Assembly (NCBI GenBank): GCA_965637545.1
Contig: OZ281497.1
Span: 14,012,001-14,076,000, forward strand
Source of the DNA: Phallusia mammillata
Taxonomy: Eukaryota
DNA: 64,000 nucleotides
Direction of reading: 5' to 3'
Below are positions 1 to 33,000 of this stretch, in pieces. A program made the position numbers. How positions within the stretch are numbered: the first letter of the stretch is position 1; every line of letters starts with the position of its first letter.

Positions 1-3000
1 TCATGGGAGCTCCAGAATAGGCGACTCGCACAGATTTTCTGTTTCTGAAGATCCCGAAGAGAAATATTCAATGGTATGTGTGTAGCATACATGTTCTAAC
101 ACTAACATCCATGTATAACTTTTCAATACCGCCAAGTTGGCCGAGTGGTTAGCGCAACCGCCTTGTGATCACAAGGTCGTTGGTTCTAATCCCATCTCGG
201 TCGCTTGTGTTTCCCTGAGCAAGAAACTTAAGCGGCATTGCTCCAACCCAGTGGTTTCCAATGGGTTGAACTAAATTGAAGTCACCAACTGCCTAAAATC
301 GAAAAAAATCAAAAAAAAAATGATCATCGGACTTGCAATAAAACAGGCAGCTCGACGGCGGACTCATTGTGAGCATAACGCATTCAGGCGTTGCCCGCCC
401 ACCGAGGATAAAAATGAAACAAACAAACAAACAAACAAACAATAGCTTTCTTTGCATTTAACGCGTAGAAGCGGGCCACTTTAAACACGCGGACTTTATT
501 TATTTAGGAACACATTCGAGCGTTATATAACGAACTCGGTGCTGAAGATCAAGACGCGGTACCCATTCAAACTCTTATGCGCCACCCAGTGTTTGAGGAT
601 GCTGTGTGTGAAACGAAGCGACATGGATGTCCTGTAAGTGTAAATTGTACATGATTTTAATAAAACAAACATATCAGATATTAAAATGCGATAACCACTG
701 AGAATATGGTCAGTTTTCATAAGCCTTGTACGGTTATTTGTGGCATCCATGAAATGTTTGCCCAACGCTAACACAATTGATTTTGATATTGTAATAAAAC
801 GTTAATGCAACTTTTTCAATGCAGGATATTCGATCGATCTTCACTCGTCAAACACTTCAAGCACTTGATGCTGACGACGCACAATCGGATCAAACTTGAT
901 TTTTGCATTGACTGTTTTAATGTTTTTTTACCGTTTTATGCTTCGTAAAGGATTTGTTTTGCGTTTATTGCACAAATATATAATTTTTATTGGCTTATTT
1001 CATGTATCCTTTTTCTACTTATTTCAACAAATACGTTTCTGAAAATATTAAAAGGAACTTTTACGTCGGTAAATCGTTTTCTTGACACAACGACTGCAAC
1101 CTGTGCATCAGCACGTCTTAGGTTTCATCTGACTTCTGAGAACAAAGTAAGAACCAAAATAGAAAACACCACTTTATTGAAACAACCTCATTTGTGGCAC
1201 ACACAATAGTAGTACAAACAGTATCAAAAGAGTCCATTACATGATTGAAGTTTTTTGACACAGTCGATAATTTTCAACCATGCTACGCACCAGGAAAACG
1301 ACAAACAGTTTGCTCAAATCGACTTTCAACATTTTAAGACAGTATTTTTTTCACCGCATTAGTCCGCAGTTAGCAAAGACGTGCAATGTAATGGAGTACG
1401 TATGTAAGGGCATTGCAAGGCTATATACAGTGTTAACACTTCTGGGTAAGTATGTGGCACCCTCTAGACTACGCTGGTTTATGTACAGATTTTGAGGTAG
1501 TTTGTCGGTTAGAACGTTGTTGGAAGGCTGCCGAAGTCGGTCAGAAAACTGTCCGTCTTAACGGTGTCTTGGTTACATGGGCATTACTTACAAAATTTGG
1601 TACAAAAAATGTTATGTACAGCGGCACAAAAAAACATACAAATCACGAAATATGCATTGATAACGAAATGTAATAGTTTGAACACTTTAACTTGTAAAAA
1701 AAGGATGGCTAAAAAAGTAAGAAACCGGCTTGTATAAAAAAGTTAAGGCAATGTTCCGCTCTGTGTGCATTTCATGCAATGTTGAATTGTTGCTGGCAAG
1801 AATTTAGCATGCGGTGCAAATTTGGCGTGTGATGCCGCTGGGAAAGCTAACGCATCTGCAGTTGGCACAGTTACTTGCTGGTGTGACACCTAAATAAAAA
1901 AAGACATTGTTAGAATAAAACAATATCAAATGGAATCGTATCTATATGTGCTTTATTTTATTTTGTTTTTTTTGATACCGTTCTTCGAATTTTAACCAAG
2001 TTGTTTTTGTTAAATGTTGAACCCCCAGAATGGAAAGGTGTCTCAATTTTTTTACCTGCAAGACGCTTGGCAACAGCCGCTGTCACTGGTTTTCCGGCAG
2101 TTCGTGTTCTTGTAGCCAGCTGTGGCGCGCTCCACACAGAACCATCGTTTACAGATGACAGCATGTTTGAGCAGATGTCCGTTTGCGAAACCAGCACCTT
2201 TAAAGCAAGATTATCATAGTTTCACAGAGTATTTTGACAACAATATAATTTACGGAATATTCCTATTGAGGACTTATACCGCATGTGAGTTGTGTAATTA
2301 CCTGATTAAGTTGATCAGCAATTGCAGTTGGATTTTCGCCTCGGATCGATTTTTTAGTGAAGGCGCCGATTTTGTCATAACCGACAACATAGTTTTTGCT
2401 ATTGACCGGTTTGTTGGTGCGAGACGCTTTGGTTTCAATTTCCTGGTTTCGAATCAGATGGAAGTTGATTTCAAAATTGTTAAACATATCAACAACTTCC
2501 GACTGGTCGATCTGCAAAAATTTAGAAAAAATATATTAATGAAACAGCGTAAATTTAGTGGGCATATTTCGATGGGAGAAATTGAAACAAAAAAGTGCAT
2601 TATATTTCTGTGATCAACTAAGCTTCGGACAAAACAACTTTAACATGTTAGAATTGATTACCTTTGGTGATGTCTGGCAATCACTGCAAGTCAGCATCAC
2701 AATGTTTCGTTTTGATGCAGCCTTGAATGGATACATTGCCGCTTGCTTCAAGGCTTCAACGGCAAAAGCACCAGAGTTTGTAGAGGAAGTCGATGGTTCC
2801 ACAAACCGTTTCAACATCTTCTCCAAGCTGTGTGCAGTTCCCATCAGCTGACCGTCAATCGTCACAGTATGCATGTTCACACCGGTTGAATCATACACCA
2901 CCAATCCGTAGCGAGAGTTCTCGTCACCAGCTCCAAGCAGACGGAGAAGACGTGGAAGAGTTGCACGCAAGATGGTGATACATGAGCCACCTTCCATCAC

Positions 3001-30000: not shown

Positions 30001-33000
30001 TCCATGTTTGTGACTTCAGTTGTTTGTTCCCTTGGGGAAATTGCTTGCTTCACAGTATACTTTTTATCATTGAAGAATAATTCAACATTCAACGGTCATC
30101 CAATATCTTGGTAAATCAAGTTTGTACATCGACATCCAGTGAAAACGTTCCACTACCTTATCAGACAATTACGCAGAGCGTCTTGTCGTCTCACAATGCT
30201 CCTTTGCTCCTTGCAACCAATCGACGGCTTTATAAAGGCGGGATGGAGGAGAAAAAATGCGAGCTTGTAAAATAAAGAAAGGTGGTGAAAACAGGCCTCG
30301 CACGCGGCGCATAATAAAACAAAGAAACGTTCCTATGTGACCTGTATTTGTAGTCACTGCACAACAAAAAATTTCCACTTGCTAGTCCCGTATTTTTTGG
30401 CAATTTTAGTTGACATTTATGTATTTTATGTGTTGTTTTTTATGCGAACAGTAAGTCTATTTTTAGGCAATATTTGCGAACAGAGTCGACTCGTTTTCTG
30501 AACATTTAAATTAAGCAAGTAAATATACCGTTTTGTAACTACAATTGTATTTGCATAAATATAAACCTACTTCTTTACCACGTTGACACAAAAAGGTTAA
30601 AACACACTGTTTTTTGTATTGGTACATTTTTTAGGTTGTTTTCACATAAGTAAAGCAGGCCAACAGGATTGTTTATCAACAAAAATGTGTTTTTCAAGTC
30701 CAATCACATTAAAAATATTAGGATGGCCTAACACAGTGGTTCCCAACCTTTTTTTAACGCGACACAAATACTTACCAAAATTTAGTTTTGTGGTTTCTCG
30801 CGACCCATGCACATGCTATTTTAGTTGTATGTTTGTCTGTAAGATAGGAAAGTTTTTTGAAAATTACTACGCCAGTTTAGCAAATCAATAACCTTACAAC
30901 GAACAAACGCTGTTGTTTTTTACGACCAAACATTTCCATTTATTCCGAACTTGGAGCTGAATCGAGGCATTATTTGTCAGACAACGCTCTACTGTGAGCT
31001 AACACATCACTTTATGACGTCACAAACAGTTTTAACCACACAACGAAAAGTTGTGATGAAGTTATTATTGGGCAACAATTTAAAGCCCTGGGTAATATAA
31101 AAGTAACGCTACGAGGCGTCAAAAAGTAGATGCTGTAGTTGTCACTAAAACAAGCGACCCAACAGAATGTTCAGGCGACCCAACTTTGGGAGACGGGCAT
31201 GCGAGCGTTTTTTGCACAATGTGCTCGAAAATGTGCAGGTCGAAATGTGCGCACATTTTTCGAAAATGTGCAGGTGCCAAAATGTGCAGGTCAAAATGTG
31301 CGCACATTTTTTGAAAATGTGCAGGTGCCAAAATGTGCAGGTCAAAATGTGCGCACATTTTTTGAAAATGTGCAGGTGCCAAAATGTGCAGGTCAAAATG
31401 TGCAGGTGCCAAAATGTGCAGGTGAAAATGTGCAGGTGCCGAAATGTGCAAGTCATAATGTGCAGGTGCCAAAATGTGCAGTCGCTCAAATGAAGTATTG
31501 ATATTTAACGTCAAACTATTGTTGTGGTCATAAATTGTGCCAAAAATATTAGTTATAAGTTATGACCTATAAATTAAAATCGGATTTAAGAGAAACTTGT
31601 AAAAATGCATGTTGTGTTTGTTAGATATGGCAAAGCGTGAAATTATCTAGCATTCAGGAAATAGGAAACACTGTTTTTCAGACTAGATATGTACACGATC
31701 GTCACCTCAATCGGTTTGACTTTATTGTTTTTAATTTAAGGCCTGTTAGCTTGTAGCCTGCCCAGCTTCTATAGATTTTACAATTAGACAATAGTATACT
31801 CATATGACAGTCCAGCTATTGTTTCCGTCACGCTTGATTAACACTACACGCTTGTCGGATGCTTGCATTGAGTTTGGTGCTTTAAGAGCAAGCAAATGAC
31901 AAAGCTGGGCTTGTATGGTCAGATTTATGCATCTACCCTGTATAATGTTACTACGTGGTTGTGATTGTGCTGTTGGAGAGTATTTAATGTACGTTTTATC
32001 TTTTTAGTACTTCTTTAAACGCTTTGAAGTGATTTTACCTAACATATTAAAGGGTGCATAAAGTTTATTACTAATTGATTTAAAGTCTGGTAAAAATAGA
32101 ACTTTCCTAACTGGCTGTATCTTTGAACTGATGTTCAACGACTTTGGCCTCGACCAGGAACTCTGGACAGACGAAAGGTCAAGCTTGAACAAAGATCATG
32201 TTTTTTTCCAAAGTTACTCATTTTAAACTGTCAACAAAGGGTAAATTTTGTGAATAAAAAATTAAGTTTATTTGAAGAAAAATTCAAGGCACCAAAACAA
32301 TTGCTAGACATCATAACCACCAAGGAAACTGGTGCAGAAAACACAAGTCAAATTGCTATGATAAGTAACAAAGAGTTAGACACAACAGAGTATTTATGAG
32401 GATATGTTTTTTCAAGGCAAAAAACTAGTTTACGGAAGTTATCAAAATTGTCAGCATGTTGTCAACCATGCGACCACAGGGCCAGCTGATTTCTTTAGTG
32501 GAGCCAAAGTCTGGAGGTCTCGCTTATCCTTTTATGAGTTACTGCAACTTTTACAAAGTGCGTAAATGCCTGACAGGATGTTTACGGCCAGCCAACAAGC
32601 TAGATTTTTACTGCATTGCAAAAGTTACACTGATCCTCACAGAGTTTCCAAAAAAGACATATGTGAAATTCTAGAAGTTGCTGGACTACCATATGAGTAT
32701 ACTGTTATTAAACTCAAAACCAAGTCAAAGACCCAGCTGTCCAGTGATTTTTATTCAATGAAACAAATGAATTATTAGAAAGTTTTCCATCCTTTGGGTT
32801 ATACTGCACAATTGACAAAAGGACTATATATGTGTCTTTGGAAGAAACTCAAATGACAACATTCAAAAAGAAAAGGACAACCACACAGTTGCCCAACTTA
32901 ATGTTTGACATTTTTTATTTGTTTGAGGCTCATTTACATGACATAACTTGGTATATGGGTATTTAATTAGGTTAGTTTTGAAACCCACACAAATACTTGA

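What the first reader, a model, noticed from the sequence alone, without database searches (positions are those of the whole stretch)
1804..30005. Probable chordate-lineage LLTP combining insect-apolipophorin features with apoB-like gigantism
Seen: an LLT N-terminus of the apoB/apolipophorin type, an internal RKKR, one huge central exon, and a retained VWD + Cys-rich + VWA-like tail; roughly 6,500 aa in total. Known: vertebrate apoB-100 (~4,500 aa) has a giant exon 26 (~7.6 kb) but no VWD, while insect apoLp-II/I (~3,300 aa) has VWD and furin cleavage. Inference: if the host is a tunicate, this gene bears on how apoB arose and may serve as both yolk precursor and circulating lipoprotein. Automated pipelines would probably label it vitellogenin or split it.
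Basis: partly seen in the sequence, partly recalled or inferred. Interest (0 to 1): 0.65.

Follow-up and report, generated by a model that had tools for sequence, protein, structure and literature searches.

The report
Giant tunicate apolipophorin-like lipoprotein gene
This is one intact 51-exon gene of the sea squirt Phallusia mammillata for a 6,559-residue lipid-carrying protein that is closer to insect apolipophorins and to an unstudied vertebrate protein family than to apolipoprotein B; the protein is already in public databases but uncharacterised.

Summary
Window 1804-30005, minus strand, holds one intact gene: ATG at 30005, TAA at 1804-1806, 51 coding exons, 50 GT-AG introns, 19,680 coding bases. 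Exon 31 (9277-20842) is 11,566 nt, 58.8% of the coding sequence. The product is 99.3% identical to a public Phallusia mammillata protein of 6,559 aa, 'Uncharacterized protein LOC100186072', so the host is a tunicate.

Domains: lipoprotein N-terminal module, open beta-sheet, DUF1081, PF21013, VWD and C8. RKKR lies at residues 714-717. The tail has a VWA fold.

The N-terminal module sits among VWD-bearing apolipophorin-like proteins, not with apoB (1e-170 to 1e-95 against 1e-43). Birds and fish keep both apoB and a VWD-bearing relative, the LOC400499/PF21013 family. The giant exon encodes at least 36 amphipathic-beta units of about 66 aa. That unit was detected only in tunicates and in this vertebrate family (30 of 78 proteins). 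Gigantism is common in the group.

Verdict: a new member of a known kind, of moderate interest.

The parts
1804..30005 (-). Whole coding span of the LLTP gene: 51 exons, ATG at 30003-30005, TAA at 1804-1806, 6,559 codons
   Evidence: colinear with P0001, 50 GT-AG introns, no internal stop, 44 of 6,532 compared residues differ
29954..30005 (-). Exon 1: start codon and the hydrophobic N-terminus (probable signal peptide)
   Evidence: That it is a signal peptide is read from the sequence and was not tested with a predictor.
25539..29245 (-). Exons 3-12: lipoprotein N-terminal domain (Pfam Vitellogenin_N, profile positions 1-581)
   Evidence: 8 open frames hit PF01347 (E 2.7e-9 to 3e-3); for exon bounds
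24725..24736 (-). RKKR, residues 714-717: a furin-type motif in a loop of the open beta-sheet domain (exon 15)
   Evidence: The homologous loop has R-X-[KR]-R in 25 of 52 aligned LLTPs. Cleavage itself is inferred.
23933..25177 (-). Exons 14-18: open beta-sheet domain (Vit_open_b-sht)
   Evidence: PF09172, E 7.9e-17, 7.9e-11 and 1.3e-5 on three frames
23470..23655 (-). Exon 20: DUF1081, the domain shared by apoB and apolipophorin-type proteins
   Evidence: PF06448, 31.5 bits (cut-off 25)
21669..22450 (-). Exons 25-27: region matching Pfam PF21013 (LOC400499 family)
   Evidence: 45.5 bits (cut-off 27) and 17.6 bits on two frames. In bird and fish relatives the same profile covers residues 1104-1634.
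9277..20842 (-). Exon 31, the giant exon: 11,566 nt, residues 1545-5400, 58.8% of the coding sequence; starts in phase 2, ends in phase 0
9490..20751 (-). Array of at least 36 units of about 66 aa (strand, H-N/D motif with a short helix, G-[IV]-P, strands), residues 1576-5329, with strong amphipathic-beta periodicity
   Evidence: 36 units at i-E<1e-3, 0 in 20 shuffles; mean moment at 170 degrees is 0.348 against 0.258 +/- 0.006 when shuffled.
6851..6933 (-). Second R-X-[KR]-R motif (RSRR, residues 5796-5799), split across the exon 39/40 junction
   Evidence: No Clavelina counterpart was found: its only such motif, at residue 3706, is not colinear with either Phallusia site.
3428..5842 (-). VWD domain on exons 45 (5575-5842) and 46 (3428-3781), separated by the longest intron (1,793 nt)
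   Evidence: PF00094 at 17.8 and 40.1 bits
3212..3351 (-). Exon 47: C8 (Cys-rich) domain
   Evidence: PF08742, 27.7 bits (cut-off 23.7)
1807..3103 (-). Exons 48-51: VWA-fold domain without a DxSxS metal site, followed by a short Cys-rich C-terminal hairpin (last 290 residues)
   Evidence: Searches give weak sequence leads, all to VWA; model with pLDDT 76.8 and pTM 0.81; best PDB matches are all VWA-fold proteins, best E 4.7e-7; the domain is conserved to the C-terminus in 18 invertebrate relatives.

Best explanation
Window 1804-30005 (minus strand) is one intact Phallusia mammillata gene. It encodes a secreted large lipid transfer protein of the apoB/apolipophorin branch. The protein belongs to the VWD-bearing, apolipophorin/apoLTP-like lineage. 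That lineage's vertebrate representative is the uncharacterised LOC400499 (PF21013) family.

Shown here:
- the gene structure
- the domain order: N-terminal lipid-transfer module, DUF1081, PF21013 region, about 3,800 residues of repeated amphipathic-beta units, VWD, C8, VWA fold, Cys-rich end
- the fact that size comes from a tandem array of about 66-aa units carried almost wholly by one 11.6-kb exon

Inferred from what is established for apoB, apolipophorin II/I and apoLTP:
- The N-terminal module nucleates lipid loading in the ER with MTP.
- The long amphipathic-beta array wraps the lipid core, so more units would give a larger or more lipid-rich particle.
- The precursor may be cut at RKKR (714-717) into a small N-terminal and a very large C-terminal chain, as in insects.

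Inferred from ascidian literature: the C-terminal VWD and VWA-fold pieces (about 25 and 30 kDa) may be the egg-coat ligands of sperm proteases described as 'vitellogenin' fragments in Halocynthia and as the 'ApoB-like' major vitelline-coat protein in Ciona. That would give the gene both a lipid-transport role and a fertilisation role.
For: Gene and product:
- 51 exons, all introns GT-AG, no stops, 99.3% identical to P0001.
- P0001 is a named public record with no genomic contig attached.
- an independent Clavelina model (P0080, 5,720 aa) is colinear from residue 2 to 6559.

Family:
- Vitellogenin_N, Vit_open_b-sht, DUF1081, PF21013, VWD, C8.
- (Clavelina ortholog against PDB): apoB-100 at 1.8e-49, lipovitellin at 1.3e-19, MTP at 5e-7.
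- 65 hits. VWD-bearing proteins score 1e-170 to 1e-95; apoB-100 scores 1e-43 and 1e-39.
- apoB is a separate clade (100%).

Link to the vertebrate LOC400499 family:
- PF21013 scores 45.5 bits on one exon and 67 bits in Clavelina, with none in apoB.
- The repeat profile hits 2 of 2 tunicates and 28 of 28 bird and fish LOC-type proteins. It hits 0 of 48 other LLTPs and 0 shuffles.
- hhalign gives E 5e-6 for Clavelina, 8.8e-5 for birds and 3.7e-4 for fish, against 0.14-0.47 for seven other groups.
- Atlas: the two nearest clusters are chordate, with PF21013 on 17-18% of members.

Lipid-binding array.

Furin loop. Passages of Palm et al. [quoted passage not shown]

Tail:
- VWA fold.
- the tail is conserved in hemichordate, annelid, mollusc and arthropod relatives, including a beetle protein named Apoltp.

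Ascidian roles (passages only):
- PMC9265791: 25-kDa vWF-D and 30-kDa CT fragments on the vitelline coat, and an ApoB-like major coat protein.
- PMC5550911: Ciona has ApoB, vitellogenin and MTTP.
Against: - The position of the tunicate pair inside the VWD-bearing group is unresolved (22% bootstrap). That group's separation from apoB has only 66% support. The tree is NJ with a divergent crustacean outgroup.
- By raw similarity, hemichordate and mollusc proteins are closer than the vertebrate LOC-type ones. Orthology with LOC400499 therefore rests on the shared repeat and on PF21013. One abalone protein also reaches the PF21013 cut-off (28.9 bits).
- No classical insect apolipophorin II/I of about 3,350 aa came back from the searches, so apoLp-II/I and apoLTP were not told apart.
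- The RKKR motif is absent from the homologous loop of Clavelina and of 4 of 4 birds. The only such site in Clavelina is elsewhere, so cleavage may not be conserved.
- The structure model of six repeat units was unusable (mean pLDDT 41). The beta-belt reading rests on periodicity alone.
- Pfam does not call VWA in the tail (14 bits; 0 of 12 homologs at E<=1).
- Whether Halocynthia 'vitellogenin' or Ciona 'ApoB' is the ortholog of this gene was not tested, because no such sequence was in hand.
- Expression, lipidation and processing are all untested.
Confidence: 0.8

Rival explanations
1. It is the tunicate ortholog of vertebrate apoB, or a form transitional to it, that still keeps ancestral VWD and furin features.
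For: - The N-terminal 1,000 residues of the Clavelina ortholog match human apoB-100 chains in the PDB at 1.8e-49, better than lipovitellin or MTP.
- DUF1081 is shared with apoB.
- Fish apoB carries R-X-K-R in the same loop (4 of 4).
- Ciona papers call their large LLTP 'ApoB' or 'ApoB-like'.
- Support for apoB lying outside the VWD-bearing group is only 66%.
Against: - apoB-100 is the weakest class of hits (1e-43, 1e-39, 1e-20) against 1e-170 to 1e-95 for VWD-bearing proteins.
- The apoB clade is separate with 100% support.
- There is no similarity to apoB beyond residue about 1,000. The repeat unit is not found in apoB (0 of 5; hhalign E 0.14).
- PF21013 is absent from apoB.
- Birds and fish have both apoB and a closer VWD-bearing relative.
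Confidence: 0.1
2. It is a true vitellogenin, a yolk precursor of the Vtg family, as UniRef labels the Clavelina ortholog.
For: - The Pfam names of the N-terminal domains say so.
- UniRef names P0080 'Vitellogenin'.
- Halocynthia workers call a VWD-bearing LLTP with a 30-kDa C-terminal piece 'vitellogenin'.
Against: - DUF1081 is present. No vitellogenin beta-sheet-shell domain was found among the 113 frames scanned.
- Lipovitellin matches 30 orders of magnitude worse than apoB-100.
- The protein is 3-4 times the length I recall for vitellogenins.
- All close relatives are apolipophorin/apoLTP-type.
- Ciona is reported to have a separate vitellogenin.
Confidence: 0.03
3. The locus is really two transcription units: a lipoprotein gene, and a separately expressed C-terminal VWD/VWA gene or internal-promoter transcript. 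The 6,559-aa product would then be only one form, or a minor one.
For: - Clavelina RefSeq isoforms (4,732-4,759 aa) end near Phallusia residue 5574 and lack the VWD-to-end part that P0080 has.
- Halocynthia is reported to make two short C-terminal mRNAs in oocytes and test cells besides the long hepatopancreas mRNA.
- The longest introns (642 and 1,793 nt) lie in the C-terminal third.
Against: - P0001 spans all 51 exons in one protein record, and every junction is phase-compatible.
- P0080 independently joins both parts.
- The same N-to-C architecture is found in dozens of relatives.
- Short transcripts would add to the full-length form, not replace it.
Confidence: 0.25

Closest known systems
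Vertebrate LOC400499 / 'YP015' family (Pfam PF21013), uncharacterised LLTPs of birds and fish, about 3,000-3,950 aa
   Same: - N-terminal lipid-transfer module, PF21013 region, VWD and C8 in the same order.
- The same ~66-aa central repeat unit is detectable (28 of 28 proteins; hhalign 8.8e-5 and 3.7e-4).
- The nearest Atlas clusters for the giant exon are of this family.
   Different: - The vertebrate proteins are about 2,700 residues shorter, with 4-8 detectable units (1 in two short fish models) against 36 with the Phallusia-only profile.
- They end 0-4 residues after the C8 alignment in 26 of the 27 that align there, and so lack the VWA-fold tail.
- DUF1081 is not called in them.
- N-terminal identity is only 26-29%.
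- The human member was neither fetched nor compared.
Insect apolipophorin II/I and apoLTP-II/I precursors (Drosophila apolpp and CG15828; a beetle protein named Apoltp)
   Same: - LLT module plus DUF1081, a long amphipathic region, and VWD near the C-terminus.
- A furin-type site after the vitellogenin-N domain (passages of PMC3406001).
- The C8 and VWA-fold tail aligns to the very end of the beetle Apoltp protein P0039.
   Different: - The insect proteins are 3,300-4,200 aa (the apoLp-II/I length is recalled).
- The tunicate repeat unit is not detected in them (0 hits), nor is PF21013.
- No classical apoLp-II/I sequence was retrieved, so which insect paralog is closer is untested.
Vertebrate apolipoprotein B-100
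   Same: - Homologous N-terminal 1,000 residues (1.8e-49 for the Clavelina ortholog).
- DUF1081.
- A very long amphipathic lipid-binding region and, as I recall, one giant exon (APOB exon 26, about 7.6 kb).
   Different: - apoB has no VWD, C8 or VWA tail and no PF21013.
- It forms a separate clade.
- The central regions share no detectable similarity.
- Exon positions and phases were not compared.
Ascidian egg-coat 'vitellogenin' C-terminal fragments (Halocynthia roretzi vWF-D 25 kDa and CT 30 kDa) and the Ciona 'ApoB-like' vitelline-coat protein
   Same: - Here the VWD-plus-C8 stretch (about 250 aa) and the tail after it (about 275 aa) have the right sizes and order for a 25-kDa vWF-D piece followed by a 30-kDa C-terminal piece.
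- A long liver-like transcript is also described there.
   Different: - No Halocynthia or Ciona sequence was compared, so this is an inference from sizes and domain order only.
- No basic cleavage motif lies at the expected fragment borders here.

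Membership tests
[quoted passage not shown] | N-terminal lipoprotein domain (Pfam Vitellogenin_N) followed by the open beta-sheet domain | tested here: met
   PF01347 on 8 exon-bearing frames covering profile positions 1-581; PF09172 on 3 frames (best E 7.9e-17)
apoB/apolipophorin (APO) branch of LLTPs | DUF1081 after the open beta-sheet; N-terminal module closer to apoB than to lipovitellin or MTP | tested here: met
   PF06448, 31.5 bits (cut-off 25). One search, using the Clavelina ortholog and not the window protein itself: apoB-100 1.8e-49, lipovitellin 1.3e-19, MTP 5e-7.
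Vertebrate apolipoprotein B | Groups with apoB in a tree of the LLT module; no VWD; central and C-terminal regions alignable with apoB | tested here: not met
   apoB is a separate clade (100%). VWD and C8 are present; no similarity beyond about residue 1,000.
True vitellogenins | Vitellogenin beta-sheet-shell domain after the open beta-sheet; LLT module closest to lipovitellin | tested here: not met
   no such domain among 113 frames; lipovitellin is far weaker than apoB-100. No bona fide Vtg sequence was available for the tree.
Apolipophorin II/I and apoLTP type precursors | VWD near the C-terminus | tested here: met
   PF00094 on exons 45 and 46. C-terminal 550 residues align to the end of the beetle Apoltp protein and 20 or more other invertebrate proteins.
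Apolipophorin II/I and apoLTP type precursors | Furin cleavage after the LLT domain into a small and a large chain | not testable with these tools
   The motif RKKR is present in the homologous loop. It is absent in Clavelina. Cleavage needs protein data.
LOC400499 family (Pfam PF21013) | Score above the Pfam gathering cut-off (27 bits) | tested here: met
   45.5 bits on the single frame 22229-22546. Clavelina 67.3 bits, bird 854.7, fish 637, apoB none; one abalone protein also scores 28.9 bits, so the profile is not strictly chordate.
VWA domain (tail) | Pfam VWA above its gathering cut-off (23.8 bits) | tested here: not met
   14 bits, E 0.06, the only family reported; 0 of 12 homologs at E<=1.
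VWA domain (tail) | VWA (Rossmann-like alpha/beta) fold | tested here: met
   pLDDT 76.8, pTM 0.81; at least 375 PDB matches at E<=0.001; the top 50 are VWA-fold proteins (TFIIH p44/Ssl1, ITIH1, integrin I domains, Rpn10, Ku, Sec23/24), with TM 0.5-0.65 on isolated domains; 10 of 11 weak profile hits are VWA proteins.
VWA domain (tail) | Metal-ion-dependent adhesion site DxSxS after the first strand (motif recalled) | tested here: not met
   the alignment shows E-G-G-S-C here and E-E-K-x-C-N in most relatives at that place.

The most novel reading that the evidence does not exclude
The giant tunicate protein and the uncharacterised vertebrate LOC400499/'YP015' proteins would be orthologs. They would form a lineage of apolipophorin-like lipoproteins marked by a shared ~66-aa amphipathic-beta repeat found in no other LLTP examined.

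On this reading the chordate ancestor had an apolipophorin-type carrier that vertebrates still keep beside apoB. Vertebrates shortened it and lost its VWA-fold tail. Ascidians instead expanded it to 5,700-6,600 residues inside a single exon. Ascidians also use its detachable VWD and VWA-fold end as the egg-coat ligand for sperm proteases. apoB would then be a separate, fast-evolving offshoot and not a descendant of this gene.
Probability: 0.4. Interest if true: 0.6.

Novelty: new member of a known kind. Interest (0 to 1): 0.42.

Why it matters
Ascidian papers speak of 'ApoB' and 'vitellogenin' without a settled identity for the large LLTP that dominates the egg coat. This locus gives a complete, intact gene model for such a protein, and it shows that the protein belongs to neither family.

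It also draws attention to a vertebrate LLTP family (LOC400499/PF21013) that carries VWD and C8. Fly-ortholog tables list it beside APOB. My searches found no paper that characterises it.

If the tunicate and vertebrate genes are orthologs, the usual picture needs revising. That picture has insects with apolipophorin and vertebrates with apoB.

The single 11.6-kb exon holding 36 or more repeat units is a clear example of a lipid carrier growing by tandem unit gain.

Tried and rejected
- Structure of six repeat units, with other stretches of the same exon as alignment rows (A3). Mean pLDDT was 41, so no fold search was run. MAFFT aligned the overlapping rows to themselves, which left the alignment shallow.
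- Alignments A1 and A2 of a short tail query against full-length homologs. My check showed the first 60-105 columns had been placed in the homologs' N-termini. Both were discarded, and the apparent conserved motifs in them were disregarded.
- Exhaustive representative search with 1,190 aa of the giant exon. It returned 1 hit, an unnamed 248-aa fragment. A local phmmer run showed that P0001 and P0002 would have scored E 0 and 3e-133. That library therefore lacks them, and the blank says nothing about distribution.
- The 'shorter' homolog search returned 13 hits among 8,000 scored candidates, with no classical apoLp-II/I, true Vtg or MTP. The tree therefore has a poor outgroup.
- Pfam on the tail exons one by one gave no VWA. 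PDB phmmer with the tail gave 0 hits.
- One search failed on a frame error and on a size limit. Both were corrected.
- Literature searches:
  - 'LOC100186072' found 1 paper, a crab transcriptome (listing only, not opened).
  - LLTP + apolipophorin + Ciona found 0 papers.
  - 'LOC400499' found 12 papers. By their titles and abstract openings none characterises the protein, and only one was opened.
  - The snake-venom and shark papers were not relevant.
- I did not search with a joined translation of my own exon model.
  - Window searches went exon by exon or frame by frame.
  - Whole-protein questions used the public protein P0001 that one search returned.
Table S1 of PMC5550911 might show which Ciona gene model is their 'ApoB'.
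No tunicate or vertebrate genomic locus could therefore be compared.

Full report
**1. What is there**

The window has no N and a GC content of 0.34-0.46. The minus strand holds an open frame of 3,871 codons at 9265-20877.

I scanned 113 minus-strand open frames one by one against Pfam. Going from 29.4 kb down to 3.2 kb, the domains appear in this order:
- Vitellogenin_N on 8 frames
- Vit_open_b-sht on 3 frames
- DUF1081 (31.5 bits)
- PF21013 'LOC400499 family' (45.5 and 17.6 bits)
- nothing in the giant frame
- VWD on 2 frames
- C8

A word-based protein search with the giant frame returned a single protein among the 1,760 candidates scored. It is P0001, 6,559 aa, 99% identical, 'Uncharacterized protein LOC100186072' of Phallusia mammillata (UniRef100_A0A6F9DJ36, CAB3262976.1). 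The window is therefore tunicate DNA. I did not take it for human.

**2. Gene model**

- P0001 maps colinearly from 30005 to 1807.
- For each of the 50 junctions, the best-scoring split has a GT-AG intron and a compatible phase.
- The model has 51 coding exons and 19,680 coding nt, that is 6,559 codons plus TAA at 1804-1806. The ATG is at 30003-30005.
- There is no internal stop, and 44 of 6,532 whole codons differ from P0001.
- Introns have a median of 78 nt. The long ones are 408, 255, 613, 450, 452, 642 and 1,793 nt.
- Exon 31 (9277-20842) is 11,566 nt and 58.8% of the coding sequence. It starts in phase 2 and ends in phase 0.

I did not search with a joined translation of this model. Window searches used single exons or frames. 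Whole-protein questions used the public protein P0001.

P0001 has no genomic contig attached in the collection. That fits my recollection that these Phallusia records come from transcripts, but I could not verify it. An independent Clavelina lepadiformis model (P0080, 5,720 aa) is colinear with P0001 from residue 2 to 6559. It lacks only about 770 central residues.

**3. Which family**

With residues 1-1100 of P0001, the search among proteins of 3,607-11,479 aa gave 65 hits:

| Group | E-value | Notes |
|---|---|---|
| Clavelina | top hit after P0001 itself | 51% identity |
| Hemichordate | 1e-170 | |
| Molluscs, annelid, arthropods | 1e-168 and weaker | Includes a beetle protein named Apoltp and 'apolipophorins' of 6,400 aa |
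| Corals | 1e-101, 3e-96 | |
| 15 bird proteins | 1e-124 to 1e-107 | 'uncharacterized LOC', with Vitellogenin_N, PF21013, VWD and mostly C8 |
| 8 fish proteins | 1e-103 to 1e-94 | Same naming and domains |
| Fish apoB-100 | 1e-43, 1e-39 | |

The search among shorter proteins gave 13 hits. It returned no classical apolipophorin II/I, true vitellogenin or MTP.

The Clavelina ortholog was run against all PDB sequences. It matches apoB-100 at 1.8e-49, lipovitellin at 1.3e-19 and MTP at 5e-7, and only over its first 1,000 residues.

I built an NJ tree of 52 sequences on 1,040 columns with 100 bootstraps:
- apoB is a clade of its own (100%).
- The two tunicates pair (100%).
- Birds plus fish LOC-type pair (100%).
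- All VWD-bearing proteins fall together against apoB, but with only 66% support.
- The place of the tunicates inside that group is unresolved (22%).
- The outgroup was three divergent crustacean LLTPs, which is a weakness.

In short, the protein belongs to the apoB/apolipophorin branch. It is not a vitellogenin, and it is not apoB.

**4. The giant exon**

- A profile seeded on G-[IVLMY]-P sites and iterated on P0001 alone converged on a 66-position unit. It has 36 copies at i-E<1e-3 between residues 1576 and 5329, and none in 20 shuffles.
- The mean hydrophobic moment at 170 degrees in the exon is 0.348, against 0.258 +/- 0.006 when shuffled. The helical moment is not raised. This is the signature of amphipathic beta strands.
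- The Phallusia-only profile also hit Clavelina (7 units) and, with 1-2 units each, 10 bird and fish LOC-type proteins. It hit nothing else among the 78 proteins.
- Iterated over all 78 proteins, the profile hit exactly 30. These were the 2 tunicates and all 28 bird and fish LOC-type proteins. It hit 0 of the 48 others (protostome, cnidarian, hemichordate, starfish, apoB) and 0 shuffles.
- hhalign gave the same picture with the Phallusia-only unit alignment:

| Group | Best E-value |
|---|---|
| Clavelina | 5e-6 |
| Birds | 8.8e-5 |
| Fish LOC-type | 3.7e-4 |
| apoB, beetle apoLTP, bivalves, hemichordate/annelid, corals, thrips/damselfly, large crustacean proteins | 0.14-0.47 |

- The protein-language-model Atlas placed 1,190 aa of the exon nearest to two chordate clusters, in which 17-18% of members carry PF21013 (score 0.90, a lead only).
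- PF21013 itself lies just upstream of the repeats. It covers residues 1104-1634 in bird and fish, is absent from apoB, and scores 67 bits in Clavelina. One abalone protein also passes its cut-off (28.9 bits).
- A structure model of six units was too poor to use (mean pLDDT 41).

**5. Basic sites**

P0001 has only two R-X-[KR]-R motifs: RKKR at 714-717 and RSRR at 5796-5799.

In the loop aligned to residues 690-745, such a motif occurs in 25 of 52 LLTPs:
- Present in both hemichordate proteins, the starfish, 5 of 5 fish LOC-type proteins and 4 of 4 fish apoB.
- Absent in Clavelina and in 4 of 4 birds.

Passages of Palm et al. [quoted passage not shown] Cleavage of the Phallusia protein is therefore plausible but unproven. 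It is not conserved as a motif in the other tunicate, whose single such motif is at residue 3706.

**6. The C-terminus**

VWD lies on exons 45-46 and C8 on exon 47. The last 290 residues follow.

Sequence methods gave only weak leads for those 290 residues, and all pointed to VWA:
- Atlas: the listed best matches, scoring 0.82-0.85, are VWA clusters.
- Pfam: VWA at 14 bits, E 0.06, as the only family.
- A profile of 13 tails: 11 PDB hits at E 0.014-1.4, of which 10 are VWA proteins.
- Against this, 0 of 12 homologs gave VWA at E<=1, and phmmer against the PDB found nothing.

A model built on that 13-row alignment reached pLDDT 76.8 and pTM 0.81. Foldseek against the PDB gave at least 375 matches at E<=0.001. 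The top 50 were VWA-fold proteins, with a best E of 4.7e-7 and TM 0.5-0.65 on isolated domains.

At the place of the metal site the alignment shows no DxSxS (the motif is recalled).

The tail aligns to the very end of hemichordate, annelid, mollusc and arthropod relatives. In 26 of the 27 bird and fish LOC-type proteins that align there, the protein ends 0-4 residues after the C8 alignment. apoB has no counterpart of the whole C-terminal part. The VWA-fold tail is thus an old feature that tunicates kept and vertebrates lost.

**7. What it most likely does**

By analogy with apoB, apolipophorin and apoLTP, this is the scaffold of a secreted lipoprotein. This step is inferred.

Ascidian literature adds a second role. 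I saw passages only.
- Ciona is said to have three LLTPs: ApoB, vitellogenin and MTTP (PMC5550911).
- The most abundant Ciona vitelline-coat protein is 'ApoB-like or vitellogenin-like' (PMC9265791).
- In Halocynthia a 25-kDa vWF-D fragment and a 30-kDa C-terminal fragment of 'vitellogenin' sit on the coat and bind sperm proteases. There is a long mRNA in hepatopancreas and two short ones in oocytes and test cells (PMC9265791).

The sizes and order fit the VWD-C8 stretch and the 275-residue VWA-fold tail found here. No Ciona or Halocynthia sequence was compared, however.

**8. Novelty**

- The protein is already public but unnamed.
- The one paper holding its Ciona-derived name is a crab transcriptome paper, seen as a listing only and not opened.
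- No paper held LLTP, apolipophorin and Ciona together.
- None of the 12 papers holding 'LOC400499' characterises that protein, judging by titles and abstract openings. In the only one opened, a review table lists it beside APOB as a fly apoLpp ortholog.
UniRef calls the Clavelina ortholog 'Vitellogenin', and the RefSeq isoforms stop about 960 residues short.
- Bird fragments of the vertebrate family are labelled 'APLP protein' and 'YP015 protein' by their depositors.

**9. Limits**

- No eukaryotic genomic collection was open, so exon positions in relatives, synteny and APOB exon 26 stayed unchecked.
- The exhaustive representative search was uninformative, because its library lacks P0001 and P0002.
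- Supplements were closed.
- Expression, lipid binding and processing are untested.

**10. Surroundings**

- Upstream of the gene lie two inverted arrays of a 14-16-nt repeat.
- Further on are pieces of an amidohydrolase gene, a SPATA1-like exon, long frames without a family, and an open PRMT5 frame running off the window.
- Rfam and tRNA scans found nothing.

Noticed in passing
window 31211-31481 and 33742-34144: Two arrays of a 14-16-nt tandem unit lie in inverted orientation. The arms are up to 158 nt at 96% complementarity and are 2.3-2.7 kb apart, starting about 1.2 kb upstream of the LLTP start codon. They could be the ends of a roughly 2.9-kb foldback or transposon-like element. The Pfam 'ChlI' hits on frames through them are below cut-off and look like repeat artefacts.
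   Followed up: partly
window 4920-5452: Inside the 1,793-nt intron that splits the VWD domain there are three copies of a 157-nt tandem repeat (91% matches), followed by an A-rich tract.
   Followed up: no
window 36963-37196 and 40429-40680, minus strand: Two frames match the end and the start of Pfam Amidohydro_1 (E 1.1e-9 and 2.9e-6). This is a multi-exon amidohydrolase-family gene next to the LLTP gene.
   Followed up: no
window 47941-48162, minus strand: A frame matches the SPATA1 C-terminal domain (E 2.4e-10).
   Followed up: no
window 62707-63999, plus strand: An uninterrupted 431-codon frame carries the PRMT5 TIM-barrel domain (E 1.7e-61) and the PRMT5 methyltransferase domain (E 1.2e-43). 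It runs off the end of the window. It has no intron over 1.3 kb, unlike its neighbours.
   Followed up: no
window 53208-57018, minus strand: Long open frames of 543, 215 and 213 codons have no Pfam family at E<=0.001. There is only a weak MamL-1 match (E 0.032) at 56377-57000. This is an unidentified gene.
   Followed up: no
proteins P0002 and P0080 (Clavelina lepadiformis): The RefSeq isoforms of the ortholog (4,732-4,759 aa) end near Phallusia residue 5574. Another model of the same locus (5,720 aa, named 'Vitellogenin' in UniRef) continues through VWD, C8 and the VWA-fold tail. This is either a truncated model or a real separate C-terminal transcript.
   Followed up: partly
Search of protein representatives library: The exhaustive library returned neither P0001 nor P0002 for a 1,190-aa query. 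Both score E 0 and 3e-133 locally at the same database size. Blanks from that library for tunicate proteins should not be read as absence.
   Followed up: yes
proteins P0076, P0077 (crustacean, about 3,300 aa): These very divergent LLTPs served as the tree outgroup (N-terminal E only 1e-12 and 6e-10). P0077 still aligns weakly to the VWD-to-end region of the tunicate protein (E 1.9e-7 over residues 5989-6559). The VWA-fold tail may therefore be older than the apolipophorin-like group.
   Followed up: no
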